Shown here piece after piece: positions 13,056 through 64,000 of a stretch of DNA of 64,000 bases (positions are counted from its first letter, which is position 1; each line of letters begins with the position of its first letter). The notes under the pieces are model-generated. The model had not been told where the DNA came from. It searched no databases and saw only the letters and a program-made list of their open reading frames with translations. This DNA comes from Nemertoderma westbladi (Eukaryota > Animalia > Xenacoelomorpha), in contig JAUCBJ010008112.1 of the NCBI GenBank assembly GCA_032718475.1, positions 1 to 64,000 on the forward strand, written 5' to 3'. The position numbers and the translations under genes are program-made.

Positions 13056-14152
13056 TGTTCGCGCTTTCAGACCTTTAGCAGTTTAACCTGCCAATTTTAG
13101 TTGTCCTCTTGTTTATAAATCGACTTTAGCCCTTACCAATTACCTGGTGTACTGAAGTTACATCTGCCGAAGCCAGTCCGTGCGCGGCGTATGACCCACG
13201 GTGTGGGAGACTGGATTCGGATTCCTTGGGAAGTATTGCAGTGTAGACCTACTGTATTATTCGATTGATCGCTACTATATAATCTCTGACAACTATATTT
13301 ACTTTCGGGGAAATATTAACAGTTCCTTTAGGACGTGGCGCTTTAAGTATAAAAACAGAGTTATGACTTATACTAATCACAACTAGATGGCCACAGAGTT
13401 TCGTAAATAGCGCATTCTTTAGGAGATGCTTTATTAACCTTCACACTACTTCACATGACTTTACACTACTTCACACTAATTTGCCGACCGTCACTGAATT
13501 TGATCATATATAAGGAGGATTGCAACTGACACACGTAGGGATTATGAAATAGCATTTAATTCACACAAAACCACTATAATTTAACTCGCAGTTGCTACCG
13601 GTAGACTCTATTCCTCTTACCTCAGTAATCAATAAGATTGAGGGGTTTATGATTATTTATCGGTATTCTCCAAATATAACATCAACATCCATTAATATAA
13701 CAACAATTAATACTATAAAACAGAAGTAAAATAGTGCGGTGAAATGAGTTAAGTAAGTAATGTATACAAATGTGAGATGAAATACAGGTGACAAGTTAAT
13801 AGATTTACGTTCTTATAACCAAGGCCATCAGATGTTCCTAGGCTAAAGTCTGAAACTTCCGTACAGAAGCACAGAATTCTGAGTTGGTTCTAATTCTCAG
13901 AAATAATAATAAAGACCATAATGCATTGCGAGTTTCTTAGATAGGGTTCTGTTAGCCGTAAAGTTAAAATTGCTCTGATTGGCTGAATAAGACAGAACAA
14001 AGAACTTCCAAGTACACAAAGAATCAGCTGACAGATTTCGTCATCCTGGTTCCAATTCCTTTCTGACGCATAGTTGAATAATTTTAGGGCTATTTTAGAG
14101 TATTCTGCGCATTGCGTAAAAATGACTTGTTATGTCCGCAAAAGCTTTTACA
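13056..14152 (-). mobile_element. 3' LTR of BEL/Pao element A (~1.1 kb, TG...CA)
   Basis: On the minus strand it begins TGTAAAAGC after a purine tract (GGGAGCAG) and ends GCGCGAACA. It aligns from end to end, in blocks, with 58384-59487. Confidence 0.85.
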
Positions 14153-14230
14153 CTGCTCCCAGAAAATGGGATTTAAGTCTATAAAATATAAAAAATCACA
14201 GTTTCTAAAATACAAAAATACTCTAAACTA

Positions 14231-17200
14231 TTAGTCATTCTTTCGTGAACGGCATTTACGAAGTTTTTTGAGGCTAGTAAGAGTCCTTTTCTCTTTGGGG
14301 CGAGCCACTTTACTAGGAGGGCTATAACTCCTGGGTGAGGGGTGCAATACAATTGCATCGGAAGGTTTCAGATTACAGTCGGTGTATCCGCCAGTCGAGG
14401 TACCCGGTTGATCGATATCAACCTCAGTGGAACGAGGTCGAACAACCTTTAGAGCGCGTTTCAGGACAGCAGCTCTTACTGGTCCCTGACGGGTCGTTTG
14501 CACGATAGCGGTAGGTTGACTGTGAGTAGTGAGAAATTTCCTTGGTTTGATGGTTCTTTCCAACTCGCGTTCTCTGGCTTTATATTCATATGGTCGTCTA
14601 TGAACTTCTTGTAGCTCTGGATGCGAGTTTATGAACAAGTCACCGTATTCCGGATCCTGACGGATGAAGTTGATCAAGTTATAGGAATTCAGGTTATTAG
14701 GATTAATATTCCTAAGATACTTGCGAACAAACTTAGTTGAAATATTCTCGCCAACACGCTTCATCAGCTCGTAGCTAGGAGTGCGAGATTTTTGCTCAAT
14801 GGAAGCAAAGAGATATGGGTGAAATGCATAGATTCCTTCATATGCACGTCCAGGATAGTATCGATGACGTGATTCGCAATGGAGATCCGCGTTAGCTTCC
14901 CAAGCTCTGATGTAACGCAGGGCAACCATTTTGTCTACGCTTTCTAGATCTCGGTTGAAAGGGCAATCGAAACTTGCGTGTCCTTTAAACTGACAATGAT
15001 GACATTGAGTCATAAATTGAGGACAGACTGCGAAGATGTGTAGATTATTGAGTCTACAATACGCACAATAAATCTCCATAGCAGGCTGTTCTTTAAAGTA
15101 GGAGCAGAGTGCGTTGGAGTCCGCCGGGGTAAAGTGATCTCGTGATGCACATAATTGGCAACGTTTCCTAGAAATATAATTGGCATGCCGATAATCGTAT
15201 GCTGTGAGACATTGTGGACCTTGATACCATTCCAGCACATAATCATTGTCACTGCTCCTGGGCGCTGTGGATTGAATCTCCTCGGACTCCAAGCAAATTG
15301 GTTCGTCTTCCAATTGCATAGCTGAGGTAGGTGTAGCTGTTTCCTCAAGGGAACCCACTGTTTGAACTTCCACAATAGAATAACCTGTGGGAATTCGGGG
15401 TCTTTGTATGACAGATGAATGTAGGTTCTGTATACAAACGTCCTTAAAAATGGCGAATCCAGCGCTGTCCAACTTCTCAGCAGCCGAGTCTCTTAAGCTG
15501 AGCTTGGTCAGAGCGCGGTCCTTGAACTGACTATCAACGTTGCGGAACAGAGTCAGAAAGCGCCTAAAGCATTCGAATCGAATGAATTTATTGTGTTCAT
15601 CTAGCTTGGCGAGTTTGGTTCCGAGCAGTAAGGGATGAGCGCGTATAGTACGACTGCACACATCGGCTAGCCAACCGGCAAGTGCGGCGTTCTCGAAGAT
15701 AGTGTATATAGCTAATGAGGGACGGAGTGGAACACTCATAAAGCTATAGACGACGCCAGGTGCGGTTAATGGTCCGTCAAAATATAATCGAGAATAATGA
15801 TCTCCATATATTTGTTGGTAGCTGACAGGGTTTCCGACTTTGAAATTCCATCCGTATTCTTGGAAGGAAAGATGTCCAATAGAGGTTCGTTGTACTTTAT
15901 TGATTCCGCTTGATGTATTAGCATACATAGTTCGGAAGAAACCTCGGCCTTCTGCCCAGGGAGCAATCAGCTGGGTGTCTACGAAAGGATATGGGATATT
16001 CTCCATGTTTCTGAAGTCATTTTGGAGATCTCCATAGATAGCTGAGCCGATTTTAAGGATTCTCTCGTCAAACAGCATCTCGAGCACTGGCTGGGGTAGC
16101 ATATATCCATCTATACCCATGGCCGGTTTGCGCTCGGTATCAGTAACATAACGCTGCGCGAGTTCGAATTGTCCATGTCGGAGTTTCTTTTGTATCTCGG
16201 TGAGAGTCTCAAAAGAATAATCGATCACGTCGCAACACGCTCGAGTAAACACAAGGGTAGAACCAGCTAGTCCTCTTATGTGTATCATTCGCGTAGTTCC
16301 CAGTTCTCCAACCGGAACGCTACCTTCGTTATCGTAAGTAACAACTCCATACATTTCGATAATGTTAAGAGTTTCATTCCACTCTTTAGTGGCGTTTTCT
16401 ATGCTCATACCCACCGGATGCCATAAGGTTGCGCATTCGCTTGCGTTAGGTAAATCGCTATACTTCAGATAATGTGTAGTATGAGTCTCTGCATCTCCGT
16501 ATTGCTGTATTCTCTCTTCCTCGAACAATACATTGAGATTCCAATGGACTAATCGAGTTTTAATAAATCCATCGAGATTATACGGAAGTATTATGTCCTT
16601 TTCTATTCTTGAAACATTATAAGGTTTTCTGAATGAGTTTACCTTAACCAATTGGTCTAAATGTTTCTGTAGTTGTTCGAGTTCAACAAGATCAAGGGGA
16701 TTTATCAATGGTAGAAACTTTAAACTGTATGTAGGATCTTCAGGTTTCACCATATAATATTGAGTTAAATTGACATAATAGGGGTGGTCTTTGATCCCAT
16801 AAAATGAGTTCGGTAAAGGTCTAGCGCGTAGGTTGACCTCGTGTACCATATGACGGACAAGATCCGCCCGATTGTCCGGAGGTTCAACGAGTATACCGTC
16901 GACACGAGCGGCCTCGATTGGCGGACGTTGTAACATAGGAGCGTCAGCGATAAGATCTCTAGATCTTAAGTTGATATCAACCGTTTGGGGTTGTACCATG
17001 GCGAAGAGTTTGTCTCCGAAATGGGGAACCATCGAAGGATGAATGATGGTTTTGGAATAGAGATCAGTCATAAGGATTTTAGCTTCTGGCTGGGCTAAAG
17101 CCGCTTCTTCTCTTTCATCCATTTCGATGTGCTTCTCCTCGAGCTGATTTTCCTCCGCTTCTCATTGGAAGCGTTCGTCCAAAAACTCTTGTAGAGAGTA

Positions 17201-18491
17201 TGTTCGTCCAAGTTCGATATCTTCTTCGAGATTCTGGATTTCCCGATCGAACTGGGGTAAAGCCAATTCCTTTACCGCTTGGACTTGCTGCTGCAATTTA
17301 CGTTTATCTAAACAATCGTAGGTTCCTTTTCAGATCTTTTTTCGAATAGCGTCTAACGCATTTCGTACAACGCTCTCCTCCACTTCGGTGACAGGTTGTA
17401 TCGGAGTTAACCCGGGACGATTATATGGGTTGAATGGCGATATTAGATGTCCGTGTCCCAATCCGGCTAGGTAGGATGGGCGAATATCTAGAGAGCCCAC
17501 AACCGGAGTGCCACCGAATAATTGTTCAGGTAACACTAGATCTTTGAACAATGAATACAACTCAGGAGGATCCGTCATACTATTAGGATCAAGAGCCCGA
17601 GGTCTCACCAGGGAATGAGGAGGTCTGACCGAGTATTCTGGAACTCTGATCATAGGTTTATTTAAGGATCGTTTGAGTCGAGCGAGCGTAGGTGATACGT
17701 CGAACAAGTTTCGCTCGAAACTCCCATAAGTGTAGCTAGTAAAACTGTGTTTAGCGCAACGTCTCCGCGGATGTTTATGTCTTTCCGTTTGTTGGTTGGG
17801 TCTAGGGCATTCATCGCAGTAATACCAAAGACGCATGTCTTGTAGGGGAAACGCTGGTGATCTTTCTCCAGTTTTATAATATTCCTCCATCTGTTCGAAG
17901 CTATCCGGTACAACAGGTAGCGGTTGATCGGCGGTAAGATACATCATAGTGAAATAGAGTCATTTGATTTCTATCATAGGGTTATGATGTATACCTTGAG
18001 GATATCGAGTTTCTAGATTTTGTTGACTGGCTACATTGAGATATGTTTCTCTCAAGAATTCCAAATATTCGTTGAAGTCACTGCGTTTATCCGGCTCTTC
18101 AACATTCAACATCTTCTCTTTCGAGTCGGTTTCGAATATAATTTTCATGTTCGATTCTCAGTTTATCATTCCGACTCCGCTGGGTATGATACTTAAATAG
18201 AATCATTTCCATTTCGGTGTCTACATCGTCCGTATCATGTAAATCGATAGGATGACCAGTAGTTAAGAAGTCCATATACGTACCATTACGATGCGTATAG
18301 CGAGCGGTGAATTTTCTATAGTCCAATTCACGCTGGAGCTGTTCCTTTGACATTGGCGGTTCGATATAGCGGCCATCGTCTTCCGTAGTATGTTGACTAG
18401 CGTCGCCGCTTATTAAGCTATCAACAAACGCTTGCAATGGTGGGGTATATCGCTCCCTGATACCAAGATCATCTTCTATCAACTCAGTCAT
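14231..18491 (-). pseudogene. Element A ORF2: CxxC-CxxH finger + DEDDy 3'-5' exonuclease + three CCHC fingers (~1420 codons, disrupted)
   Basis: ORFs 18099-18491, 17960-18148, 17330-17947 and 14231-17122 join via one frameshift and three in-frame TGA (17960, 17330, 17162). Motifs: YDNEG, LPQPVLEMLFDERILKIGSAIYGD, FVDTQ, YTIFE. Colinear with the C-terminal part of the element B polyprotein. Confidence 0.85.
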
Positions 18492-19604
18492 AGCTGCTAT
18501 ATGAGTTTATCGATATTATAATTGATAATAATTAGGCCAGCGGTCGTTGCTGCCTCCCCCTCAGTGCCCCCGGACAGCGCAAGATCCTCAGCGCTGATGC
18601 ACTGTCGTCGCTGTGCCTCTCGCCAACGTAGTAGCTACACAACGACAACAATAACCAGCGCGAGTCACTCCACTGTCCGTCCCAAGGGCTTAGATATACT
18701 GGAGGTACTTGCTATAGAGGCAGGGTAACTTTCACAACTGCGACTCGCTACTGTAAACACACTTTAGTAGTAACATTCACCTATAAATACACAAATTCCA
18801 CATTCCTGTCACAATTTGTACAAATTCGGGCCATTTGTCCGTTAGTCAAATGCCTTCCAGAATGCCACGTTATTATTATGTATCCCTGGATACTAGCAAG
18901 GTGCTATTTATTCCGCATTCTATTCAATGGGGCAAGCTTTCTATTGTTCTTTTAACTCACTTCTAATTCTAGCGTGGTTGTTGCTATGGTGACATTATGG
19001 AAAGCTAGCGGTAGAATTAGAGTAATTCTCATGCATACAGATCTGGGATGCTATTTAATAGTGATTCTTTAATTGTCATTATTCCCTTTATACATGATTT
19101 TATGAATTTTATCGGCTATTGACTGTACACTGGAGATTCTCTCACACTAATATACTTAATAGGGTGAATCTCTGCTCCCATGATCTATTAATTAATGGAA
19201 TTTTGGGAATGTTATAAATTGTATAAAATGACAATTTATCAAATTCATGAGAGGATATGAATTTAAAATTTATTCCCGTGAATTTTATTATTTGATATTA
19301 AAATAGATACAATTTTATTCCAGAACATAGCTGGGAACTAGGATCCTTAATTCCAGAAATTTGTCTTTTAAGAGTATCGGTAAGTACTACGATACCTTAA
19401 TCGACTAGAATTTTAGAGGATCGAAATTTTTAACAGATTTTGATTTATAAATTTTCTAGAGTCAATTTGTTAGCATTTCCTCTATTTTAACATTTGTTTT
19501 AACAAACGTAATAAATATTTATTACATATTTAATATTTAAGATGGGCACCGATTTATTCCAGAACATGTCTGGGGACGTTAACCACTGATTCTAGAATTT
19601 TGTC

Positions 19605-21535
19605 TATAGAATTATATTCCCTAAATGCCGTGGATTTTCAAAATTTTATTTTATTCGGATTAACTTTTGTAAAGATTGCTTTAAGTTCTCATTCGTATTG
19701 GTTCTATCATTTGTACATCTATCGGTCAAGTGGTTCAGTAGCTCAGTTGGTAGAGCGTTGGAAATTATATGTGTAGTAGGTATCGAGTTCGAATCCTAGT
19801 AAGTGCGAATTATTTTTTGTACAGAATTTCAACTCATTTAAATTAACCGCTACAAATTAATTGCATTCGTCTGTACCAATGAGGCTGTAGTTATTTGATT
19901 GTAACCAATGTCGTGCAAGTTATATATTAGCTGGACCAATAGCTATCTTTAAAACCCCGTTAGAACCCATAGAACAATCGAGAATTTTCTCGATTGATTG
20001 CGGCACAAATTTGCTATATAAAGGTGCGATTTGTTCATTAGTTATCAATCTACACTACTTCAATATTCTCTCAGTTATTTAGTTATCTGATATTTGTTTA
20101 TTCTGTGCTTAGTTTATTCTCAGATTACATTGTATTATAATTGTATCTTCTGTAATAAAGTCAGAATATTCTCTCAGCTTTTCTATCTGTTTTACTATGG
20201 ATTCACTACGGTGAACAAACTCAGGGACAGGATGGCCGGCTAGAGATCGGGCCGCAGCAATGAACGGGAACATCACGGGAATGTAGACGAGAGACAACCC
20301 GCAATACCATCTAGAGTTATTCGCCCATCGCCTGAAAGGTTAGACAGCGTTCGATCCTTGCTACCTAAGTATAAGACCAAAAGATCAAAAGGTAGACGTA
20401 GTGACACGCTGTAAGCCCAAAATTACATCATAGGGACTGTACTGTCTTGATTCAGGAAAACCCACAGTAGACCTTCACATTCCTACGGGGGAGGGAGAGC
20501 GCAGGCAGATACTAGTACGCAGATAGGACGTAGGCACACCGGTACAAGGCATACACATTGGTTAGGGTGCAGCAAACTGTACGCTTAACTCTTGCTAAGT
20601 ACAGGTGCGCGTGCGACTATTTGCAGTACGACAGTGTCCATTGCATTAGAACTTGTAGGCTAGGGGGGTTGCTGTGTTTTCACCTGAATTGGGATTGTAC
20701 CGTTCAGGCGGTAGGGCAGTTTACGTACTAGGCGCAAATAAATTGAGGCTATCAGGGATACTAACATCTACCGTGTCCCCGCCAACGCCCTAATAGGAAG
20801 TTACCCGGACTACCTGGGTGACTAAAATTCTAGATAGGAGCCAGGATAGCTATTAGTACCTGTACGCCTACAGTAGTAAACTAACACATCTCTTCTTAGT
20901 ATCAGGGACCTGGTACCTAAAATTGCCGAATTCTGGGCGTAGTATTAACCTTATGCCTGAATTTGAGTCCTGGAAATACGCAAGAGGGGAAGGAACCTTA
21001 TCATTCGTGAGTATTGGACCTACAAGTTACAAAATTAGAATATTCGTAAATGCACACCGTACCCAGTAATTATATATGTGAAGGAGCAAAACTGTTTTGA
21101 CCGTTCAGAATTAACACACGCGCGTTAGAAATTATTTACACCTCGAAATATATAAAATTAACTTTGTCCGTACTGTGCTTTGCCCGCTAGTTAGACATCT
21201 CCAAATCTCTGCCTGTACCTAGCTAGCGTCCCTTTGCCCAACCATATAAATCACACCGCGGCAAAGTATACGAGCCCCTTAGTCCGTCAGTGAGTCAGCC
21301 TGATTTTAGGATTCGCTGTGCGGGATTTTGTTTTATCGAAGTTTGTCTGCTCGTAGACTGTTTTCTGCCTCACCGGTTATAAGAGATCAATACTGCAATA
21401 TATTCGCTTACTTAGAGTTTACTGTTTTGGTGAGAAGGTCGGATTTATGATTTGATTTACAAACTTTACAGTAAGATATTGCAGGTATTGTTACCGTCTC
21501 TTCCAATAGTAGGAATAGGCGTATCTCTTCAATTA
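19605..21535 (+). repeat. 5' LTR of element B (1931 bp, TA...TA termini)
   Basis: Direct repeat of 33759-35689 (offset 14154). Three substitutions found by eye (19788, 20504, 21319). Confidence 0.96.
19732..19818 (+). promoter_or_regulatory. tRNA-like Pol III promoter cassette within the LTR (second copy at 33886-33972)
   Basis: A box TAGCTCAGTTGG(TAGAGC), B box GAGTTCGAATCC, then a T6 run. No acceptor or anticodon stem of a functional tRNA. Confidence 0.65.
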
Positions 21536-21546
21536 GTAGGAATGTG
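21536..21546 (+). promoter_or_regulatory. Putative self-priming primer-binding site of element B
   Basis: GTAGGAATGTG abuts the LTR end and is the exact reverse complement of CACATTCCTAC at 20476-20486. No TGG-initiated tRNA PBS is present. Confidence 0.65.
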
Positions 21547-22342
21547 TTTTACTGAACTACGGTTCGGTAGGACTAAAGTTATTTGAAAATTTTGTATTTT
21601 GAGGTAAAAATTTGTATTTGATTAGCTAAGTGCTAATTTTAAAATAAAATTTGATTTGAACCGCGTGTAAAATATTTTTGGAATTGAATACCGGTGTTTA
21701 AAAGGGTTTAAATACCATATTGTACCGGTACAAAATTTTCGTAAAGTAAAACCTAACTCTTTTGTTTTTTCAGGATTCAGAACTCATTTCTAGACTGTAA
21801 CGGGAGCAAGACCGTGTTTAGCAAGTTTGGGAGATAGATAACTCAACAACTTTGGTTGGGAAAATCGCGTTTCGTCCGCAACGTTAAAAACGGAAAGGTT
21901 CACGTTCGGTTTGTATCTGGGAATCTGTTTTTCTGGAGAATTATTGGAGTGGGTGAGTTCGAAAAGTTGCATAAATAAGTTAGGCATTACCGTATTAGTT
22001 AAAATTATTGTGGGTTCCACTGTCTCAAGTATTTATGCATTCCGTATGATTTCTTTGTTCATTGCTGAATTAGTCCGTATTATTGTATTTAATTTACCTT
22101 TTGATAACGCATATCGTTATCCGATTTATTTGTTATAAAATTGGCTGCTAGGCTAATTTTATTATATACTTATTCCGTGACATTTATTTGCTGTAAAATT
22201 GGCCGTTTAGGCTAATTTTATCCATCTGCTATAAAATCGGCCGGTAGGCTAATTTTATAAGACTGTAATTAGTACCGTTTTGTATAAATACGGTAAAACT
22301 CGATACTTTGACACTCACTTTACTTGACTTACAACTACCGAA

Positions 22343-25300
22343 ATGAGTGACAAACAAGACTATACGAAAAATACACAAACCGACTATGACTCATGTGACG
22401 CGGATAAGTCAGCAGCGGAAGGACAACAGGGGAAGACTCGCGAGCCTACCGAACCTACACCGTGTGCGTCACCAGTACATCCAACGGGAGTACCGGATGC
22501 CGTAGTACGAGGCGACGGCAGGACCGAGGACTTTCTAACTGTTCCGCAACCTAGATACAGGGAAACGGACATGGTAAGTTCAGCAGGAAGCACAGAAAGT
22601 GTGGTTAGAAGCGTCGGAGGTTACATGGCGCATATAACCAGGAGTATTGGAGAAGGCCAACGCATATTAGACGGGTTGACCGCTCCGATGTCTCGATTCG
22701 AGTTCTACACCCTCCAGGTTAGAGTACAGAGTAAAGTATATAAGTCCGTAGATAATCTAGTTGGCCTACAAGATCTAGCTAGACAGAGACAGGACATGGA
22801 TACTCAACTTAGAATCCTCGAGAAACTAATGATCACTAGAGAGAAACTGATTCAGTTTAAGTCGACGATTAGACAGATACAACAGGAACAAGCGGACCAG
22901 TTGTTAGGTGAGTCAGTTTCGGACGAATTATTACAACCCGAGGAAGAACAGGAACTGTACCGACTGGATGGACAATTAAAACACCTGACGGACCACTTAC
23001 GTATGTGCGGCGAAGACGTCGGAGATTGGGAAACCGTGCCGGAATATACGAAGGAAACTTCACCCGTACGAATTGAATCGGCACCGGGAATACTGGACCA
23101 ATCGTTGGTAAGTATTCGTAGCGAAATCTGCGAGGGAAGTATAGTCACGTCAGAAGTTGCTCGACAACAGCAAGAATTCCACCGACAACGACAAGAAATG
23201 GAAGAACAAGCTCAACTTCTAGTGATGCAAGCAGCAGTAGAGGAAGAGAAGCTACGCGTTGCGAATATAGCAAGAATCTCTCATCTACAGGAACAAGCTG
23301 AATTAGAAGCAGCTGAAGTAGAAAGGTTAGAAGTAGACATTGCCCGACAAGCGGCAGCGGCAGCGGCCGAGGTAGAGCGACGAGCGGCAGCGGCCGAGTT
23401 AGAGCGACGAAACGCAGCGGCCGAGTTGGAGCGACAAACGGCAGCGGCAGAATTACAACGAGAAAGGTTAGTTTCGGAAGCGCGGGCCGAAATGAAAACA
23501 CGGCAAATAAAAGCTCAATCCGCTATACGACAAGCGGAGTTTGAGGCGCAACGACAACAAACGGAACAACGAGAGAAGACAGTGAAACTTCATTTCGAAC
23601 TCGAGAAGAAGGCGAGAGAATTAGCGAACGCCGAGGAAGATTTGGATCAAAAGGCCCGCGATAGATCGATGAGATCTCGTGACGGACATGATTTGGACCA
23701 GTTAGAGGTAAGACATCGCCAAATTCAGGAACGGAAGAAGGAAGGAAGCGTAGGAGCACCCGGACGGGAACGACAATTAGTAAAAGACGTGTGTCAACGA
23801 TTCCCACAGGTAACTCATATGTTTGCACCGGTTACGAGTAAGGAACCTGTTTCGATTGCGGGTAGTAGTGATATTTCTCCTATCCATGGTGCGACGGAAC
23901 ACAGGTTTGTTATTCCGGACGAGTTTACACCGCCAAGAGCAACGTCGTCGCCCATTCCGAAAGTCAAGGTAAGTAACCCACCGATTACGGATCGTAGTAG
24001 TTTATTGACCGGACCTGCGCTACTGACGACAAAACAGGTGAGTCCACCGTCGACACCTAAACCCGTTACACACTACGCTTACCCAATGACGTTTCGACCA
24101 ACAAGGCCTTTGGATTCAAATGCTGTCATTCGCCCACCGAACCAGTTTACATCGCAATCTACGACTTCGAGGAAGACTTGTGAGCCTACCGAACAACGGA
24201 GAACAGAGACGCGACCATTCAACCATTTTACATCGCAATCTACGACTTCGAGGAAGACTTGTGAGCCTACCGAACAACGGAGAACAGAGACGCGACCATT
24301 CAACCAGTTTACATCGCAATCTACGACTTCGAGGAAGACTTGTGAGCCTACCGAACAACGGAGATCAGTGGACGATGTTCCGAAACGAAACGTGAGAATT
24401 CGTACGACGCAACGAACGCGAGCACGTCGACCACCATATCCGGATGATAGTAGTACTTCGAGCGAATCGGATTACCCGAAACGCGAGGTATTTAGAACAG
24501 GGGCGGCCGATGAATATAAACGCGAGCGTTCAGACAACTCCTTTGCAGACAATCCTCCACAGAATACACCAACACAGAAGGCGTTACAACCAACGGACGC
24601 AATTAGTACACAACAGTTCGCCGACATCCTGCGACCAGTTGTTAACAAGTTGGCTCAGATCGAGGAACGTCTGGAGGAAGGTTACACCGACAGTTCGAGA
24701 AATTCCGAATTCGAACACAATAGACACCCGAAGGAACCACAAAGACCGGTACCTTCAAACCCCACATCGTATCAGGGAAAAGCGCCAAGAAGGGATATCA
24801 ACCAAGTTACCAACCAAGGACGCGAAACTCTGAACGTTGCCGAGGAGATAGCGAAATTCGCAGCCAGACAGGGATTGCCGGTACAACAACCACCGAAGTT
24901 CTCCGGTAGCTCAAAACACTGGCATACCTTCGTAGACTATATCGAATCCCAGATCGCCGTGTGCGCCTTTACATCACGGGAGAAGTTCAATTACTTGCTC
25001 CAAACGTTGTCAGGAGAACCTAAACGTTTGGCGGAGACTTTCGTCGGTGTACCGGACGCTTTCGAACTAGCGTACGATCGTTTAACTTCGATATACGGAG
25101 GTACAGTGAGCATGGCCAGGTCAGTAATAGAGGAACTCTGTAAGGGAGGGGCTATCACTAAACCCGTCGACTTACTAAAACTAGCTGACGAGATCAAGAA
25201 CGCTATCACTACCTTAAGATCAATTGGACAACTTGATTACGGGAATACCCCTACAGTCCTATTAAAGATAATAGGACGACTCCACCATCGACTTCGTCGG

Positions 25301-28300
25301 GAGTGGAGGAAGGTCGAATACCAGCGAGAGGAGCGGGGAGGATTCTTAAAATTAGAAGATGTGTACCTTTTAATATCCAGGGAGGCGGTAGTAGAAACTC
25401 GATCTAACTACACCGACCAGCACATCGTGGCAGAAGGAATCACACTGCCATCCTCTAACCGACAAAAACCCCAGACAACATCCACTAAGACGGCCACTTA
25501 CGCCACACCGACGGAATCACGACAATTCTCAGACGGTAATAGAGTATCTGCGCCCATTGGGACGAAACAGACGAGACAGCAACTCAGCACCGACTTCAGT
25601 GGCTGCCAATACTGCGAGCATCTAGGTAAGCGGTATATCGGTCACAAGTTACGAGGTTGTCGACAATTTCGCGAGTTGAACTCGGAAGAACGACGGCTGC
25701 AAATACGGCCACTGGACTCTTGTTGGCGGTGTACGCGACACGGACACGTCCGTAAAGACTGCCCAAATACCGACACTTGTCCATCCTGTGGACGCAATCA
25801 CGACGGTCTGCTCCACACAGACAGCCACACGCCGACGAAACGCTTCGCCAGGGAACACCCGGAAGCAGCAGCGAGATGTGATGCGGCTTACCAAAAACGA
25901 GAATCAAAAACGACTCCAACCTTCGTGACCCATATTGAGGATTGCTTCTCAGAACAATCCGGATCGTCGGATGAAGAATCAGAAGACGACGATGAATATT
26001 CCAATGGAGACGAACAACCGTCGATCGCGCTCCTGACTACTGATCAACTGAAGGGATTCAGTGTAATCCCGATTAAGGTTACTGGCACAAAGGGGAGCAA
26101 GAGGATCTATGCGATTCTAGATTCAGCCTCATCCCATAGCTACGTGGACGAAAAGATAGCTGACGTCGTGACGGATCTAAAACAAGGTAAGCACGTCAGT
26201 TATACAGTAAGTAGTATGCACGGACAGCGTGCAATACCAGTGACACGAGTCAAGTTAAACTTAGACTCTCTTCTTCCAAAATCGCAACACAGCGAGAGGG
26301 AGAGGTCTTTGTTGCCCTTTAGAGATCTAACCTTTGCGGCTACGAAGGACTTTAGTAACCTACTAGGTCCAGTACCGGAACAATCTCTAGAGGACCGTAA
26401 GTATTTCAGACACCTTGGTGTACCCGAATGTCCTGTCAATTATAGATCGGTAGCAATGCTGATCGGGACAGACCAATTCAACCTACATCAGGTGTGGGAA
26501 ACCAGACCATCGGCAGTTGTAGCGGGAAACGCATACGCCTGCAGAACGCCGATAGGGTGGTATACTCGAGCGCCTGTGCGCACACTAGACGTAAGTGACG
26601 AGGAAGACGATGTACAGAGTACATGTAGTTTATTAACTACAAATTCAATTCATTCCTTTTCACACGACGTGAACCATACTACACTACAGTCGACAAAACA
26701 CGACAGACGTGTAACTAGTATGATAAGTCACAAGGAGCAGCTAACCCACAAGGTGAGTTTAGAACTTGGGGAGAAGACGAGTCAGCTGGAGATTCCATCG
26801 ACGACAGATGATAGGCTTGCGAGTCTACCTACCCCAATAACCTCAACAGTGCCCGTCGATATCGATGATGACGCGTTGAGAAATCATCAGTTGGAACAAG
26901 CCGCCTTGGACAAAGAATTAACGGAGAAGACTATCAGGTGGTTAGAACAAGATACAGCTGAACCTGGTAGCTACGAACCTTGTATGTCGGAACAGGAGAA
27001 ACAATCTCTGAAGATCATGGAAGATACTATCCGCCAGACGAAAGACGGACATTATGAGGTAGGGATGTTATGGCGTAGCCAAAGTCCTAAACTTATAAAC
27101 AACTATCCACTGGCTTTAAGACGTCTACACTCAATACGGCAACGTCTATTGAAGGACGAGAAAGCCCATCTGCAGTATAACACTCAGATGGAGACGTATT
27201 TGACAAAGGGATACGCTATCCGAATGACTAACCCGGAGCGAGTGACCGACCAGACGTACTACTTGCCACATCACTACGTGAGACACCCCGACAAACCAGA
27301 CAAAGTACGTGTAGTCAATGACTGTGCGGCTCTGTTTGAGGGAATGTCCCTCAATAGTGAGTTGATGGATGGACCGAACATGAATAATTATCTTATGGGG
27401 GTGATTATGCGCTTCCGTCAGCGTCAAGTAGCCTTTACTTGCGACGTTGAAGCGATGTTTCACCAAGTAAAAGCGTTAGAGCGAGACAGAGACAGTTTGC
27501 GGTTCCTCTGGTATCCGGAAGGAGACTTAAGCCTACCACCAGCGACTTACCAAATGCAAGTTCGCGTTTTCGGTGCCAGAGACAGCCCAAATTGTACGAT
27601 GTACGCCCTAAAGCAAGCCGCTAGGGATCAGAAACATCTATATGACCCAGAGATAATTAGAATTGTGGAGCGTGACTTTTACGTTGATGACGGATTACAG
27701 AGTTGCGACACAGTAGAACGTGCTACAACAGTAGCACATCAATTACGGGACTGCTTGGCGGGCGGAGGTTTTAACCTCACCAAATTCGCCTCAAACAGTG
27801 CCGAATTAGTAGACTCATTCGGAACTACTGAGCGTGGAGGTGGTGACATAGACCTAGAGTTCGAACCACTACCGACGACTAAGGTGTTAGGGCTCTTTTG
27901 GGACCCAAACACAGACAACTTTCGAGTGAAGGTGAGACTGGACAGTCAAGGGAACACACTGACAAAGAGATCATGCTTGTCAAAATTGAGCCGATTGTTC
28001 GATCCGTTAGGATTCATCAGTCCAGTGATACTGCAAGCCCGCATTTATATGCGCAGTATCTGGAAGGATGGACTAACATGGGACGAGCCGATCTCATCAG
28101 ACCAAGTGGACTTATGGAAGACCTGGGAGGCGGAATTATCTTCGCTAGAGGATTATTTCATACCCAGGGTTTACTTTCCATTGCAAAGTACATTTCCTGA
28201 CAACTTGGAACTACACTGTTTTTCTGACGCCAGTGACAACGGTTTTGGTGTGGCAGCGTACTTACGCAGACAAGTAGAATCAGACGAGTTCGATGTTTCG

Positions 28301-57765: not shown

Positions 57766-58383
57766 CTATTCTGTATACATCAGGTTCCTAAATGAATTGT
57801 TCCACGTTCCCACAAATAATGTTCAAAAGTACAATCTCATGGCATACTTGTAGTATCTTAATTCAGTGGCCTGAACCATCTGATATTAATCCTCAACGCT
57901 ATTCAGATGTTTTACAGAATTAGGATCCTTGTGGGCGAATCATCGCGGCCCATCTGTACAAATAATTACGGTAACAAAAACGGCTCAAATTAGTGGCGGT
58001 GTTAATGGTGCAATATTGGTACGTTTAATAGTGAGATATATTTTCAATCACTTGTATCAAAAGTCTGAAAGCGAAAATAGTATTCCAGGAGTTGGGACTT
58101 TTGGTAATATTATTTCAGTTGTTTTATTGCAGTTTGGCCCCAATTATATTCTAGCGGTATTGGAGAGGTAATAAGCCAGCGATGCACACTACCCGGAGTC
58201 CGTTGCCACTGTAAAAGCTTCTGTGGGATGCAACTGGTCCTTCGCCCCGCGATCCAGTTTTTCCCCCATACGCTGAAATACTCTGAAACCTGCTGTAAAA
58301 GCGTTTACAGATATAATTGGATCCCCTAGCCCTCGGGGTGCTGTATAAGTGTTTTTAACGGACATAAAATAGATTCTTCTGAA

Positions 58384-59487
58384 TGTGTGCTTTATGCGGA
58401 CGTAGCAGGGTACACAACCCGCAATGCGGCATTTCACTGTCACTATGTCAAGGGAAGGATTCTGATTACGACATCTCCCAGCTGGATGATGACGTGGAGG
58501 GAGCTCTCATTGGACTCCTGGTTCCTTTGTTTTGGTCTAACAACCAATCAGGGTGATTTGCGTTTTCCTTGAAGAGATACCTACAGCAGCTCCCAAACTC
58601 AGTGTTTATGTCGTTCCATACTGCCTGAAGATCGGCTGGAATGACGCAATGTTTCTGCCTTTTTATAAGAACATTAGTAGGCTAAATTATAGAAAGCATA
58701 GCTATTATCGATTCGATCCGATTCGATTCGACACGATTCCAATTTATAACTTAACGATTCAATGCAATCTAATTATATCTTAACCTACCGTCATACTGCT
58801 TTTACTGTTTGTAATTTTGTATCAGTATAATTGGATGTTATTAGTTGAAGAATATCAATAATCAACCCACATTTTCCCAATATCTTTGATACACTACAGG
58901 TTAGAGAGAAAGGTTATGTACAACAATTGCGACTTTATTATTGTGTTTGTAGTGAATCTAATGTTGTTTGACAGACACTACCTGAGTCCAGTGCATATCT
59001 CTTTATACCTGATCAAAGTCAGTAACTGTCGGCATATCAGTGAGCAGTGTTGTGCGTTACCGGTAGCGTGCGTGATTGTAAAGTGATTGGATCTGATAAT
59101 AAAGCATTCCTAAAGAATGCGCCCTATGCTTGAAATTTAAGCCATATCGTTGTGTGTAGTATCAGTCATAACTCTGTTTACATAGGTAGAGCGCCACGTC
59201 CTAAAAGGAACTGCTAATATTTCCCGAAAGTGAATAATATTTGTCAGAGATTATATATTAGTAATCAATCGAATAATACAGTAGGCTTGACCGCAAATAA
59301 ATTTAAGCCCACGAATCCAGTCTCCCGGTGTTATAAACGGGTCATTTGGACGCGCATGGACTGGCTTCGGCTAATGTTTTTGGTTTGTTTTGTATTAAAT
59401 CTTATCATCTTACAAAAGGCAGATTATCAATAAAGACATATAAATTTCGGCAGGTTAAACTGCTGAAGGTCTATAAAAGCGCGTACA
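58384..59487 (+). mobile_element. 5' LTR of BEL/Pao element C (~1.1 kb, TG...CA)
   Basis: Colinear with the reverse complement of 13056-14152. Ends GCGCGTACA (A: GCGCGAACA). Conserved TTATAAGAAC at ~58663. The start is uncertain by a few bases. Confidence 0.8.
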
Positions 59488-59498
59488 ATAATAGCTAT
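59488..59498 (+). promoter_or_regulatory. Putative self-priming primer-binding site of element C
   Basis: ATAATAGCTAT abuts the LTR's terminal CA and is the exact reverse complement of ATAGCTATTAT at 58698-58708. Confidence 0.65.
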
Positions 59499-59744
59499 CG
59501 ATCTTATTTGCGGTAAGCAATAAGATTGAAAATACCGGTACTACTACCGTAGGTCCGTAGGCCCAACTGTCATAACCGGTACTGCTGTGCAAGTACATTA
59601 GTATTATTTCGATTGTGATCTATTGTATATTGTGGGCTGCCAGGGGAATAGGGATTGATCACCCCTCATTCTTTTGTATAGTTTACTTATTTCTGTCGGT
59701 TTTATTTACTAGTAAGTTAATATTGAGCCGAAGACGTGTAAGTC

Positions 59745-60325: not shown

Positions 60326-61482
60326 GTTTATGCAATTACTCGCAACATTCATGTCCCCAAGTTTATTCCTACAGTAATTGTGTTTGTTATACATACCGTT
60401 ATAGTTAAATTAACCCCAGTACTACACGGGCTGCTTGGCGTAGGTAAAGACTGGTGACTTAGTGCCCCGGTCACTCCAGCAGATGCTGTGGTTCTTTTAA
60501 CTGTTCAAGTATATTTAACTACTGGTTATCTGTTTTACAAGTACCTGTACCTAATTTAGGGTTTAGTGTACAGTGCTGTCCGAGAGTAATTAGTGTAGGC
60601 ATTATTGTGTTGTAAAGTAGTTAATAGGCACGCTCGTTCTGGTAGACGGCGGTAATTAACTTCTAGGTAGGAACACTCCGTAGATACATAACGTTGTACC
60701 TATAGCGCTACGGCTGTAGGTCGTCAGGCGGTGGTATTTTCCTATCTAGACAACGCAATATTTACTTCTGCTTATTATTTTCAAATACCGTAGTATCCTG
60801 TCCGTTGAAATAACCAGGAGATCTAACCCTTTGTTAGACTGGTTAGTAGTTTCCCTGTAAAATTGCCCTAAAAATCTGTACGTACCGTTTTTGTGTGTTT
60901 ATTAGAGATTGTAATCTCACCAATAGTAAGTAACTAGTAAATAAGTAACGTAGGCCAGTAGAATTATTCTGTTTAGTGTCCCATAAGTAGCACTTCACTG
61001 AAAGCGCACAGCTTCTGTGTAGTGGTATTTTACCGGAAATAGTAACACCTATTTCAATCTTGTAACAAATCCCTTATCAGGGTATATATATATTATAAAT
61101 CAACTCCAAAGATTTATAAATCAGTAGGCCTGTCATACAACAAGTAGGTCTCAATATCAGTTGGACTACTGCTTACATAACGGTAACAGAGTAAACTCAA
61201 GTAACTAAGTAACCTTATAATTTCAGAAATTCAATTATCCTAAATAATTGATATACCGGTATCTATAATAGGCTTAATATATATTTGTATATATTTGTAC
61301 TGAAATTATATACCGGTACTCTGTGACAAACCTAGTCTGCAATAATTATATATACTGTGGGTGTATACCGGTATCCTAATATATCGTAATTAATTACCGG
61401 TACTAGGCCAACAGTCCTACTGAATTACTGGACTTGCTTTAACTGTAACTATAGCAGTAGGCATTCAACTGTATAACTAAAC

Positions 61483-64000
61483 ATGGCTGACATAAAGAAA
61501 ACTCTGTCAGATAGTCTTTTAGAAACAACAGCCTGTTTCTCAGATCAAAGTGTAGAGAATCCTAGACCGAGATCTGAGACCCCTCCTACTGTAAGAAGGG
61601 CAACCCCTGCAGTAGTTGTGTCAGAACCTAGGTTGGTAGAAGCGATTTCGCAATTTGCTAAGTTAGTGAAGCGCCGTAGGTCTGCCATAGGCACTCGGGC
61701 CCAAGTCAAACGGAACCCAGAGGAAGCTGTCCTATCGCAGCAACATCCTGATCACGAACCTAGTCCCCAGCGACCCGATAGCTCCAGTAGTTCGGAGACT
61801 GTTGAGCGGACACCCGAACGCGGAGCGAAAATGGTGGATACGGCTTGTGATGAGCGGCCAACCTTTGAAGAATCAACCGACGCCCCTTCTTCTCAAGTAG
61901 AAAGCGAAGTGGAAAGCGAAGTGGAAAGCGAAGTGGAAAGCGAAGTGGAAAGCGAATTAACACCAGAAGGACCACAAAAGAGAGATGCAATTGATACCTA
62001 TTTGTCAGATTATCAGCGATTCATAGGAGACAAGGAGTTGAGAAGAAGACTGCATGGATTTACACCTAATAGTGCAGGGGCTAAGCGTGTATTGGACGAA
62101 CTCGATGCTGAGATGTTAGCTAAAGATCAAGCTAAATTTGATGAGGAAAGACGCATCGCTAGAGCCCAGGAAACACAAGTCCAGAAAAAACAAATAGAAG
62201 ATCGAAAGGCAGCAGCAGCGGCAGAGGCAGAGGCAGCAAGAAAGTTAGCAGCGGCAGAGGCAGAGGCAGCAAGCAAGCTAGCAGCGGCAGAGGCAGCAAG
62301 CAAGCTAGCAGCGGCAGAGGCAGAGGCAGAAAGAAAATTGACAGAAGCGGAAAAGAGAGCTTCTGACGAGATCGCCCAACTAGAGTTGGCAAATCTGCAA
62401 GAGACACATGATTACATCAATAAACGCGACACAGAAAGTCGAATGAAGATACTGAGTCGATCTACTTCGAAACGCCAAGGTTTTACATCCTCAGAAGAAG
62501 GAGACACTACCGACACTGAAGGTGGAAGAAATAGATCCCGTCTCAGTAGGCGTAAAAGAATGTCTCCACGTCAGAAATTGCCTGATTTGCCTCCAGCTGT
62601 TAAGAGACAACTAGCTAGCATAGCAGTAGATAGTACAGAACCCACAGACCAAACTATTACCATTACCAGACTCCCTACTATAGTAGATGAGCCGGAAATA
62701 ATTAGGCCTGTTCTAGAAAACACCCCTTCGGTGAGAGAGACCCCTGTACTCCCCAAATCTACTACCAAACTCCCTTTACACAGTACTATTAAATTAACGG
62801 CACCTGGTGGAGCAGCCCAAGTCCCGGTTCTGGAGACTGAGAGAGACATACAAGATCTGTCTCCCGTCGCCCCGATACGGCCCGCTACAACGTTGGCGAC
62901 TCCCGCTTCGGCGGTCGAGTGGGTTGAGAAGGGACGGCGGGAGATGAGTCTCTTGCTCGGTCAAATGCGAGAACAGCGAGACTGTTCCTCGCAACAGATC
63001 CGGGACTTAGAAGGGACTGTCTACCAACTCAAGGGAACCGTAAGGGATAGTAGGATAGAGCTGCAAGAAGTGCAGCAAAATATCGCTCTCGAGCGCGACA
63101 AATTAGTCAATATACAAAGGGGAATACCAACACCCCCTGTAACCCTGTGTCAACCTGCTAGGTCGGAAGTGTATCATGCGCGAGGTGTGTCGCCTACACG
63201 CATATATACTGCTAGCAAAGTAGAAACACCCCCTATAACCCTGAGTCAACCTGTTAGGTCTGAAGTACATCATGCGCAAGGTGTGTCGCCTATACGCATA
63301 TATACTGCTAGCGAAGTAGAAACTCCTATAGTAAACCCTATTACGGGAGACTACAAACCTGTGAATAATGATATTCCCTATAGACCTGATAATGATCTGA
63401 AAAATTTATATACCGATAATTCGATATTAAATAACACGATGGCCCAAGAAAGCTTTACGCGTCAGATGGCTAGAACAGAAGCCCGCCAAGCGGTCAAAGT
63501 GGGAGAAATTGTCAAATTCAACGGTGATGAGATGAAATGGTTACCTTTTAAAGAATATTATGAAGATAGCATACAGAACTCTGTACTATCTAGCGGAGAG
63601 AAACTGAGATTCCTCATCAAATGTTTGGAAGGACCTCCCAAGTTAATGGCGTTGAAGTTTATTGGACATCCAAATGGATTAAGACAAGTCTGGGATACAT
63701 TAAACACCAGGTATGGTAATAAAGATAATATCGCTAAGTATTTGTATGCAAAACTGGTAGCCCCTCGAAAGTTCCTTAGTAACGAGATTATAGAGTTTTC
63801 CGATGAGATTCAAGAAATCTGCCGACAATTGGATTGGTTAGGTAAGTCCCATGAATATCAGAGCTCCATGGTCATCGGAGCCATAGTCTCTACTTTGCCA
63901 AAGGGTGGAGTATGTACACGTTGGGACAAGAAGGTGTTGCATATGATGGAGCAACAACGACGGAGCCCCACCATGGTGGATCTCATGTCATTCCTAGACC
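61483..64000 (+). CDS. Element C Gag (N-terminal part, runs off the window)
   Basis: Frame starts MADIKKTLSDS and the window ends in the same frame (RSPTMVDLMSFLD). Closely homologous to element A gag (DAIDTYLSDYQRFIGDKELRRRL; MAQESFTRQMARTEARQAVKVGE). Absent from the ORF track, consistent with no stop inside the window. Confidence 0.9.
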   Translation, partial: MADIKKTLSDSLLETTACFSDQSVENPRPRSETPPTVRRATPAVVVSEPRLVEAISQFAKLVKRRRSAIGTRAQVKRNPEEAVLSQQHPDHEPSPQRPDSSSSSETVERTPERGAKMVDTACDERPTFEESTDAPSSQVESEVESEVESEVESEVESELTPEGPQKRDAIDTYLSDYQRFIGDKELRRRLHGFTPNSAGAKRVLDELDAEMLAKDQAKFDEERRIARAQETQVQKKQIEDRKAAAAAEAEAARKLAAAEAEAASKLAAAEAASKLAAAEAEAERKLTEAEKRASDEIAQLELANLQETHDYINKRDTESRMKILSRSTSKRQGFTSSEEGDTTDTEGGRNRSRLSRRKRMSPRQKLPDLPPAVKRQLASIAVDSTEPTDQTITITRLPTIVDEPEIIRPVLENTPSVRETPVLPKSTTKLPLHSTIKLTAPGGAAQVPVLETERDIQDLSPVAPIRPATTLATPASAVEWVEKGRREMSLLLGQMREQRDCSSQQIRDLEGTVYQLKGTVRDSRIELQEVQQNIALERDKLVNIQRGIPTPPVTLCQPARSEVYHARGVSPTRIYTASKVETPPITLSQPVRSEVHHAQGVSPIRIYTASEVETPIVNPITGDYKPVNNDIPYRPDNDLKNLYTDNSILNNTMAQESFTRQMARTEARQAVKVGEIVKFNGDEMKWLPFKEYYEDSIQNSVLSSGEKLRFLIKCLEGPPKLMALKFIGHPNGLRQVWDTLNTRYGNKDNIAKYLYAKLVAPRKFLSNEIIEFSDEIQEICRQLDWLGKSHEYQSSMVIGAIVSTLPKGGVCTRWDKKVLHMMEQQRRSPTMVDLMSFLD

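What the first reader, a model, noticed from the sequence alone, without database searches (positions are those of the whole stretch)
13056..64000. Candidate system: giant BEL/Pao lineage combining an encoded 3'-5' exonuclease/CCHC module with tRNA-independent self-priming
Seen: three BEL/Pao elements. The two with a visible 3' half (A, B) both encode a DEDDy exonuclease plus CCHC fingers. The two with a visible 5' end (B, C) both replace the tRNA PBS with an 11-nt complement of their own LTR. B is 16.1 kb, and A exceeds 14.6 kb without its 5' LTR and leader. Known: BEL/Pao elements usually have one gag-pol ORF (sometimes env) and a tRNA PBS. Self-priming is established for Tf1/sushi-type Ty3/gypsy elements, and DEDDy cargo ORFs are known from bdelloid rotifer retroelements. 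I am not aware of the combination in BEL/Pao but cannot search. Inference: the nuclease may trim RNA back to the PBS duplex to make the primer 3'-OH, proofread RT on an unusually long genome, or degrade host small RNAs.
Basis: partly seen in the sequence, partly recalled or inferred. Interest (0 to 1): 0.9.

Follow-up and report, generated by a model that had tools for sequence, protein, structure and literature searches.

The report
Integrase-less, self-priming retrotransposon carrying exonuclease
Two related jumping-gene families in this animal DNA carry an extra predicted RNA-trimming enzyme and likely start copying themselves with their own RNA instead of a host tRNA, and one of them has lost its integrase gene and carries that extra enzyme in its place, so it likely borrows integrase from another element.

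Summary
Observation confirmed, with additions.

- B (19605-35689) is a young 16.1-kb BEL/Pao-lineage element (LTRs differ at 3 of 1931 bases, 5-bp target duplication) nested in A; C is a sister of A.
- B and C have no TGG-type tRNA site. Each has an exact 11-nt complement of its own LTR flush with the LTR end (1 and 7 of 5000 shuffles). New: in both, a strong hairpin starts at the edge of that site (z -6.2, -4.8).
- A and B share an exonuclease plus three-knuckle module (28% identical, weakly supported DnaQ/EXD2-like fold) and are sisters by RT-RNase H.
- Not stated in the finding: B has no integrase. The module is fused in frame where integrase belongs, and B ends TA...TA.

A linked priming system is not shown. 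There are only two related families, RNase H motifs are intact, and the same cargo occurs in unrelated rotifer retroelements. 'Giant' is overstated: maxima of 16-23 kb are in print. Best reading: Tf1-like self-priming plus an independent RNA-trimming accessory, with B helper-dependent. My searches found no such BEL/Pao element in print; Repbase, GyDB and Dfam were not searchable. New variant of a known kind.

The parts
13056..14152 (-). Element A 3' LTR (1097 bp, TG...CA), TATA-like TTATAAG at LTR position 335, AATAAA at 718
14153..14166 (-). A polypurine tract, flush with the LTR; resembles B's
14231..18157 (-). A ORF2 (env position): N-terminal Cys/His motif (17818), exonuclease motifs 16336-15689, three CCHC knuckles 15160-14978; three in-frame stops in its upstream part
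18507..19604 (-). A non-coding spacer between pol and ORF2, downstream part; holds a short internal repeat into which B inserted
19600..19604 (.). B target-site duplication, left copy (TTGTC)
19605..21535 (+). Element B 5' LTR (1931 bp, TA...TA ends); TATA at LTR position 411-419, AATAAA at 550 and 1133
20476..20486 (+). B candidate self-primer (exact complement of the PBS), LTR position 872, followed by a purine tract that can pair with the LTR end
21536..21546 (+). B primer-binding site, flush with the LTR end
21546..21573 (+). B 12-bp hairpin with UACG loop at the 3' edge of the PBS
22343..32971 (+). B single reading frame: Gag (DUF1759, three knuckles), PR, RT, RNase H, Lys-rich linker, ORF2-like N-terminus (29420-29812), exonuclease, three CCHC knuckles; no integrase; one in-frame stop at 31379-31381 that contigs of three runs do not share
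30653..31258 (+). B exonuclease motifs: D-N-E (30653), KVGSGVREDL (30902), YLAIE (31238)
31841..32005 (+). B accessory triple CCHC knuckle
33745..33758 (+). B polypurine tract, flush with the 3' LTR
33759..35689 (+). B 3' LTR
35690..35694 (.). B target-site duplication, right copy
36334..41008 (-). A pol: PR, RT, RNase H, integrase (37656-36430); broken by a stop and a frameshift
40983..43756 (-). A gag, broken; cut at its 5' end next to a 59-bp tandem repeat; leader and 5' LTR absent
58342..59487 (+). Element C 5' LTR (TG...CA), homologous to A's LTR; TTATAAG at 58663, AATAAA at 59098
58698..58708 (+). C candidate self-primer, 35 nt below the start of the TATA-like box shared with A
59488..59498 (+). 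C primer-binding site, flush with the LTR end
59498..59528 (+). C 12-13-bp hairpin at the 3' edge of the PBS
61483..64000 (+). C gag (83% nucleotide identity to A over 774 bp), runs off the window

Best explanation
Two sister BEL/Pao-lineage retrotransposon families (A/C and B) carry a predicted 3'-5' exonuclease with three zinc knuckles and likely prime reverse transcription with their own RNA, and family B has no integrase, carries the module in its place in one reading frame, and likely borrows integrase from a helper element. Priming (inferred): the RNA starts at the 11-nt primer and folds onto the site flush with the LTR end. The next hairpin stacks on that duplex, and the element's RNase H cuts after base 11, as in Tf1. 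The module (inferred): the common ancestor of A and B captured it in the env position as an accessory RNase D/EXD-type exoribonuclease. The knuckles hold single-stranded RNA while the nuclease trims RNA 3' ends, most likely in RNA turnover or against host small-RNA silencing, independently of priming. B arose by a deletion of integrase and spacer that fused the module in frame, so protease would release it inside the particle.
For: Shown: exact 11-nt complements flush with both LTR ends (1 and 7 of 5000 shuffles). The two primers have different sequences. Flush hairpins in both (z -6.15 and -4.84, 0 of 200 shuffles each; among the 4 and 2 most stable places in LTR plus leader). C's primer lies 35 nt below a TATA-like box shared with A and upstream of AATAAA. 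The duplex forms with probability 0.86-0.92 when the RNA starts at the primer and ends 30-55 nt past the site. An integrase profile finds only A's integrase in the window's six frames (E 2e-131), while 118 of 120 RT-RNase H homologs have one. B's LTRs differ at 3 of 1931 bases and it has a 5-bp duplication. Contigs of runs X1, X3 and X4 cover B in 30 of 30 bins, and no listed joint or loose end places an integrase after RNase H (lists cut). Of the 32 listed variants in B's frame (stop site left out), 26 fall on third codon positions, 5 of 5 past RNase H. A and B are sisters (SH-aLRT 99 among 38 rows; 0.999 among 121). For the fold: top rows are EXD2, RNase D, Nibbler and WRN (E 1.9e-3; Z 7.6); two remote homologs keep the same module and fall with PF01612 clusters. 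For independence of the traits: Tf1 makes its primer with RNase H (PMC7175516), B's RNase H motifs are present, and DEDDy ORFs occur in rotifer Juno, Vesta and Terminons (PMC5408684, PMC6431247).
Against: No transcription start was measured. B has no TATA 30 nt above its primer; its clear TATA and first AATAAA both lie upstream of the primer, and when folded from there the duplex does not form (0.0). For C the duplex also weakens with a longer 3' end (0.43 and 0.001). Run X4 (library not on record) shows depth steps that would put B's main 3' end upstream of the primer, which does not fit plain Tf1 geometry (weak, contigs only). Tf1's three-duplex 'pretzel' is not reproduced: C has no flanking duplex (391 of 500 shuffles as good) and B one (6 of 500). 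The model is poor (pLDDT 45; the second model 31) and Z 7.6 is under the tool's bar of 8. Atlas scores are under 0.9 and are for homologs. The third motif is YxxxE. Nothing tests the substrate. A's primer site and C's 3' half are unseen. The variant list is the best-supported 40 of 682 rows. A and B are long branches, 42% identical in RT-RNase H.
Confidence: 0.55

Rival explanations
1. Linked system: the exonuclease makes the primer. An RNA that starts upstream, or a second packaged RNA, anneals to the site and is trimmed 3'-to-5' back to the duplex edge, leaving the 3'-OH.
For: B has both traits, and the module is fused into its Gag-Pol frame, so it would be packaged with RT. In B the primer lies downstream of the obvious TATA and first AATAAA, where a simple 5'-end primer is awkward. 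The duplex ends sharply at 11 bp in both elements. A and B share the module by descent.
Against: Trimming needs a free 3' end, so a cut is still needed. RNase H suffices in Tf1. C fits Tf1 geometry. In A the module is a separate ORF behind a non-coding spacer. The cargo occurs in unrelated retroelements. Unchecked notes of this scan report self-priming BEL/Pao elements elsewhere and their summaries mention no nuclease (a lead only).
Confidence: 0.2
2. The exonuclease acts on DNA: it proofreads RT on a long genome, or removes non-templated bases from the blunt cDNA ends before integration.
For: DnaQ-like folds include proofreading domains. PBS and PPT both abut the LTRs, implying blunt ends. 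In B the module follows RNase H in the same polyprotein.
Against: The nearest folds are EXD2, RNase D, Nibbler and NrnC types, followed by three nucleocapsid-like knuckles. About 650 residues separate RNase H from the nuclease. BEL/Pao elements of similar length are reported, and 0 of 120 RT-RNase H homologs carry the module in their polyprotein.
Confidence: 0.13
3. The module is a catalytically weak or dead RNA-binding protein (like EXD1, Egalitarian or Maelstrom) used for RNA localisation, packaging or as a decoy for the piRNA machinery.
For: Third motif YxxxE in A, B and P0002 instead of YxxxD; EXD1-like clusters and Egalitarian appear among the look-alikes. PMC5408684 notes inactive DEDD derivatives in piRNA biogenesis.
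Against: All four acidic positions are kept in 4 of 4 sequences that are only 23-33% identical; P0003 has YxxxD.
Confidence: 0.12
4. The 11-nt pairing is real but is not the primer: it is a dimerisation, packaging or translation switch, and priming uses a tRNA fragment or another RNA.
For: B's promoter and poly(A) layout does not fit Tf1 simply. C's site contains an 8-nt palindrome. The host's tRNA set was not available, so internal tRNA complementarity is untested.
Against: The pairing is flush with the LTR end, exactly where minus-strand DNA must start, is 11 nt as in Tf1, and recurs with different letters in two families.
Confidence: 0.12

Closest known systems
Belpaoviridae / BEL-Pao LTR retrotransposons (ICTV profile, PMC8742986)
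   Same: DUF1759 Gag with three knuckles, PR-RT-RNase H (PF05380), integrase with DUF5641 in A, PPT; RT-RNase H is 43-44% identical at best to BEL/Pao polyproteins of molluscs, echinoderms, cnidarians and tunicates.
   Different: No 18-nt tRNA site; B is 16.1 kb with 1.9-kb TA...TA LTRs and no integrase; an exonuclease-knuckle module occupies the env position (A) or the integrase position (B). Sub-clade (Sinbad, Suzu, Sailor and others) not assigned: no reference sequences were at hand.
Tf1/sushi self-priming Ty3/gypsy elements (Tf1, Tf2, Tj1); predicted also for Tcn1 and the plant Copia lineage TAR
   Same: An 11-nt LTR segment complementary to a PBS just downstream of the LTR; RNase H present (PMC7175516, PMC4600332, PMC6317226).
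   Different: BEL/Pao enzymes; primer and site 780-1050 nt apart; a local hairpin follows the site instead of the three-duplex pretzel (bioRxiv 2022.12.06.519325); 5'-end position unproven, doubtful for B.
DEDDy ORF3 of bdelloid Juno and Vesta LTR elements and Terminons (PMC5408684)
   Same: An RNase D-like 3'-5' exonuclease as extra ORF downstream of pol; a deviant acidic motif (DEED there, D-E-D-E here).
   Different: Different host lineage of element; three CCHC knuckles and an N-terminal Cys/His region here ('CCHC' occurs 0 times in that paper's text); fused into the polyprotein in B. Homology to the rotifer ORFs not tested.
Cellular DEDDy nucleases: EXD2, RNase D, Nibbler, EXD1, Trypanosoma brucei RNase D (nuclease plus CCHC)
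   Same: Top structural rows; the nuclease-plus-knuckle layout matches the Euglenozoa cluster and PDB 7c45. That the trypanosome enzyme trims guide-RNA tails is recalled.
   Different: Sequence identity 11-17%; no Pfam hit; large insertions; encoded by a retrotransposon.
Non-autonomous LTR derivatives mobilised in trans (large retrotransposon derivatives, PMC6431247; Morgane and BARE-2, recalled)
   Same: Intact LTRs and target duplication with a missing enzyme supplied by a helper.
   Different: B keeps Gag, PR, RT and RNase H in a long selected frame, lacks only integrase, and gains a domain.

Membership tests
Belpaoviridae (BEL/Pao) | RT and RNase H of BEL/Pao type | tested here: met
   PF05380 E 2e-41 (B), 1e-33 (A); 804 homologs at E<=1e-20, all 120 listed carry PF05380
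Belpaoviridae (BEL/Pao) | Gag with capsid and nucleocapsid domains | tested here: met
   DUF1759 in A, B, C; Cys-His knuckles in A and B
Belpaoviridae (BEL/Pao) | Pol order PR-RT-RH-IN, element A | tested here: met
Belpaoviridae (BEL/Pao) | Pol order PR-RT-RH-IN, element B | tested here: not met
   No integrase by Pfam, tblastn or a purpose-built profile. B is filed as a derivative of the lineage, not as a canonical member.
Belpaoviridae (BEL/Pao) | 18-nt PBS complementary to a tRNA 3' end | tested here: not met
   No TGG within 25 nt of the LTR end in B or C; internal tRNA matches untested for lack of the host tRNA set
Belpaoviridae (BEL/Pao) | Genome 4.2-10 kb, LTRs 0.2-1.2 kb (ICTV) | tested here: not met
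   B 16.1 kb with 1.93-kb LTRs, A over 14.6 kb; within the survey maxima of PMC3118150 file 9
Belpaoviridae (BEL/Pao) | Polypurine tract before the 3' LTR | tested here: met
Tf1/sushi self-priming | LTR segment of about 11 nt complementary to the PBS | tested here: met
Tf1/sushi self-priming | Primer is the 5' end of the RNA | tested here: inconclusive
   C: TATA-like box 35 nt upstream; B: none at that distance; no 5'-end data
Tf1/sushi self-priming | Three-duplex pretzel around the PBS | tested here: not met
   One flanking duplex in B, none in C; the 3' side forms a local hairpin in both
Tf1/sushi self-priming | Chromovirus Ty3/gypsy enzymes | tested here: not met
   Enzymes are BEL/Pao type; it may work like Tf1 but is not a member
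Tf1/sushi self-priming | RNase H cleavage after base 11 | not testable with these tools
   Catalytic motifs present in B
DEDDy 3'-5' exonucleases | DnaQ-like fold | tested here: inconclusive
   Best Z 7.6 (rmsd 5.0, 110 aligned) to EXD2 from a pLDDT-45 model; the top rows are almost all DnaQ-like, but Z is under 8 and no Foldseek E<=0.001
DEDDy 3'-5' exonucleases | ExoI D-x-E and ExoII D | tested here: met
   Invariant in 4 of 4 rows; the ExoII stretch aligns to EXD2 (E 1.6)
DEDDy 3'-5' exonucleases | ExoIII Y-x-x-x-D | tested here: inconclusive
   YxxxE in A, B and P0002; YxxxD in P0003; motif definition recalled
DEDDy 3'-5' exonucleases | Nuclease activity | not testable with these tools
   needs an assay
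Bdelloid Juno/Vesta DEDDy ORF3 | Homology to the rotifer ORF3 pool | not tested
   Those sequences were not among any search result

The most novel reading that the evidence does not exclude
B is a helper-dependent retrotransposon that swapped its integrase for a packaged 3'-5' exonuclease, and in this lineage the self-primer is finished by exonucleolytic trimming back to a hairpin-stacked 11-bp duplex. That would be a new way to prime reverse transcription, in a pair of families that may share labour: B-type elements bringing RT and nuclease, A-type elements integrase.
Probability: 0.15. Interest if true: 0.85.

Novelty: new variant of a known kind. Interest (0 to 1): 0.62.

Why it matters
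ICTV describes Belpaoviridae as tRNA-primed, 4-10 kb and poorly understood in replication (PMC8742986). This lineage departs in three testable ways.

1. It likely extends self-priming to a third LTR superfamily, with a different RNA structure from Tf1's.
2. It extends the exonuclease cargo known from rotifer elements to BEL/Pao. The fusion in B suggests the enzyme works inside the particle, which narrows an open question about what these cargo nucleases do.
3. B is a young, repetitive element that keeps a very long frame under selection, lacks only integrase and has TA...TA ends. This raises the question of which integrase moves it. Pipelines that require integrase, TG...CA ends or a tRNA site would miss or misfile such elements.

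Tried and rejected
No whole genome is held, so copies could not be collected and families could not be scored.

Homolog searches: none for full-length A ORF2; only P0002 with the four-row profile. Of 3 hits among 1.84 billion representatives, P0001 is a repeat-protein artefact and was dropped. No related loci in viral or metagenome contigs with the module; one uninformative 1.3-kb locus with B's RT. None of 120 RT-RNase H homologs carries the module in its polyprotein; separate ORFs beside them could not be seen.

A's primer site was sought by laying contigs on A's LTR and by a scan of the window and was not recovered. The second model (A's domain) failed (pLDDT 31) and was not searched. No tRNA gene or Rfam family explains the sites. 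No RNA holder was listed.

Rejected: a splice-made primer as in notes e1-7811049 and e1-7882409 (the complements here are contiguous in the LTR); programmed read-through at B's stop (contigs covering it in X1, X3 and X4 read otherwise, so it is copy-specific); a Tf1 pretzel; 'giant' as a record; B's lack of integrase as a one-copy accident (made unlikely, not excluded).

Literature searches gave no paper with self-priming or an exonuclease in BEL/Pao. In some searches the term 'bel pao' matched nothing, so one search is the real test. Three primary Tf1 papers were not held.

Full report
ANATOMY. The window is repeat-rich eukaryotic DNA; no genome is held for it. Three BEL/Pao-lineage elements are present. 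A lies on the minus strand from 43756 to 13056. It has a broken gag, a broken pol with PR, RT, RNase H and integrase, a non-coding spacer, a second ORF with three in-frame stops, a PPT and a 1097-bp TG...CA LTR; it is 14,611 bp without B and has no 5' LTR in the window. It interrupts a LINE RT gene. B (19605-35689, 16,085 bp) sits in A's spacer, with 1931-bp LTRs that differ at 3 places, a TTGTC duplication and TA...TA ends. C begins at 58342; its LTR aligns with A's and its gag is 83% identical to A's over 774 bp. So there are two families, A/C and B.

B HAS NO INTEGRASE. B's frame runs Gag, PR, RT and RNase H with their catalytic motifs, then a Lys-rich linker, then sequence homologous to A's ORF2 (residues 2365-2495, E 1e-10; 2655-3331, E 6e-57). 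An integrase profile built from up to 60 homologs finds only A's integrase in the six frames of the window (E 2e-131). 118 of 120 RT-RNase H homologs have an integrase; the two without end early. Contigs of three runs cover B in 30 of 30 bins and a fourth in 27 of 30. Run X1 alone lays 25,077 contigs spread from 99% to under 90% identity, so the family is repetitive (inferred; depth is no copy number). No listed joint or loose end places extra sequence between RNase H and the module, but the lists are cut. The stop at 31379-31381 is not shared by the contigs that cover it (10, 2 and 2 contigs in X1, X3, X4), so the family likely has one frame of about 3,540 codons. Of the 32 listed variants in the frame (from the best 40 of 682 rows, stop site left out), 26 are at third codon positions, 5 of 5 past RNase H, and none of the 12 listed indels lies in the frame. 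The fused module therefore looks selected. A young insertion with a clean 5-bp duplication and no integrase implies an integrase in trans (inference).

THE MODULE. The A and B domains are 28% identical. Pfam names no nuclease. A two-row profile found 3 hits in 1.84 billion proteins; two (P0002, P0003) have the same nuclease-plus-three-knuckle layout, and one is an artefact. All four rows keep D-x-E, a second-motif D and Y-x-x-x-E/D. The Atlas places both homologs with PF01612 clusters (0.86 and 0.87, under the 0.9 bar). The model of B's domain is weak (pLDDT 45), but its best matches are EXD2 (E 1.9e-3; Z 7.6, rmsd 5.0, 110 aligned), diDNase/NrnC, WRN, Nibbler, RNase D and EXD1, and viral 3'-5' exonucleases. 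The knuckles resemble nucleocapsid knuckles. I take the DnaQ-like fold as likely and activity as untested. None of 120 RT-RNase H homologs carries the module in its polyprotein. A and B are sisters against these homologs (0.999 among 121 rows; SH-aLRT 99 among 38 rows chosen as 24 near and 12 random homologs) although only 42% identical, so one old capture is likely; both are long branches.

THE PRIMER SITE. Neither B nor C has TGG near the LTR end. The first 11 nt after each LTR are exactly complementary to 20476-20486 and 58698-58708, with no extension. Shuffles reach this in 1 and 7 of 5000; 11 of 12,212 and 3 of 4,502 internal 11-mers have any complement in the LTR. A new feature: in both elements a 12-13-bp hairpin begins at the last base of the site (z -6.15 and -4.84, 0 of 200 shuffles). 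It is one of 4 (B) and 2 (C) equally stable places in LTR plus leader, with no shared sequence. It would stack on the primer duplex where a 5' end leaves room (inference). C fits Tf1 geometry: TATA-like box, primer 35 nt on, AATAAA 400 nt later. In A's LTR the stretch just below the same box (13743-13795) is the least shared among related contigs and is replaced in listed joints, as expected if primers differ by family, though this is indirect. B is less tidy. Its clear TATA (LTR position 411) and first AATAAA (550) precede the primer (872); a second AATAAA lies at 1133. The duplex forms at 0.92 from starts at 20476 or 20420 and at 0.0 from 20300 or earlier. Run X4, of unrecorded type, shows depth rising to about 130 per mille of X1 towards 28.8 kb (an A-rich stretch) and towards 34.3-34.4 kb, then falling to 27 and 7. 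That looks like oligo-dT RNA with a main end at the first signal and a minor one further on. It is a weak hint only, but it would mean that only a minority of B's transcripts can serve as self-primed genomes. The Tf1 pretzel is not reproduced.

ARE THE TRAITS LINKED? This cannot be shown from two sister families, of which only B displays both. Tf1 makes its primer with RNase H (PMC7175516, passages). DEDDy ORFs were gained at least twice by rotifer Juno and Vesta elements and occur in Terminons (PMC5408684 and PMC6431247, passages). Unchecked notes of this scan report self-priming BEL/Pao elements in other genomes, and exonuclease cargo in other LTR families; these are leads, not support. I therefore favour two independent traits (0.55), with primer trimming (0.2), DNA-end work (0.13), a dead RNA-binding domain (0.12) and a non-priming role for the pairing (0.12) as rivals; these are not fully exclusive.

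WHAT IS KNOWN. The ICTV profile (PMC8742986, whole text) gives 4.2-10 kb, LTRs of 0.2-1.2 kb, an 18-nt tRNA site and integrase. The metazoan survey (PMC3118150, passages and file 9) lists maxima of 16-23 kb and LTRs to 2.4 kb and does not mention PBS or primer in its text. The review of giant transposons sets its bar at 20 kb. Self-priming is described for Tf1/sushi and predicted for Tcn1 and plant Copia TAR elements (PMC6317226, PMC4600332, bioRxiv 2022.12.06.519325; passages). Passages of PMC8220671, PMC12440569, PMC11673190 and PMC3601003 added no precedent; Troyka shows that other terminal signatures exist. Ten full-text searches (listings seen, and the papers named here) gave no BEL/Pao element with self-priming, an exonuclease, or loss of integrase alone. 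Subscription papers, Repbase, GyDB and Dfam were not searchable.

VERDICT. Real, and a new variant of a known kind. Each part has a precedent in another superfamily. Their meeting in BEL/Pao, the flush hairpin and the integrase-for-exonuclease swap in B have none that I found. The linked system remains a minority hypothesis. Interest 0.62.

Noticed in passing
window 19735-19800 (and the same place in B's 3' LTR): A tRNA-like stretch with A-box and B-box look-alikes in B's U3, seen by eye; ARAGORN and Rfam report nothing. Possibly a decayed SINE or tRNA piece.
   Followed up: partly
window 21500-21546: The first 8 nt of B's PBS also occur about 25 nt upstream inside the LTR end as part of a short local duplication; it may record how the TA end or the site arose.
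   Followed up: no
window 19289-19604 and 35690-35782: B inserted into the second unit of a roughly 240-bp-period repeat in A's spacer; the empty site is abundant in all four runs and the flanks are far deeper than B. Whether B targets A-family elements is open.
   Followed up: partly
window 11751-13055: A interrupts a LINE RT gene; the rest of that LINE is not in the window, so A's 5' side was lost by deletion or rearrangement.
   Followed up: partly
window 28276-28836 and 33886-34447; also 13396-13483: Run X4 shows depth steps at an A-rich stretch and at poly(A) signals of both B and A, as oligo-dT RNA would; its library type is not on record.
   Followed up: partly
window 29420-29812 and 17700-18090: A conserved region of unknown function with a CxxC...CxxH motif precedes the exonuclease in both A and B; no Pfam hit.
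   Followed up: partly
window 486-4166 and 45501-46215: A 62-63-bp satellite in two arrays.
   Followed up: no
window 50640-52787: Two foldback or MITE-like elements with long near-perfect inverted repeats and 92-bp internal units.
   Followed up: no
window 59752-60325: C's 2-kb leader holds a roughly 290-bp direct duplication at 77% identity.
   Followed up: no
P0002 and P0003: Two unnamed proteins on 9.4-kb and 7.5-kb contigs share the nuclease-plus-three-knuckle module; whether they lie in retrotransposons could not be seen.
   Followed up: partly
window 53180-54481: A second LINE RT fragment on the minus strand.
   Followed up: no
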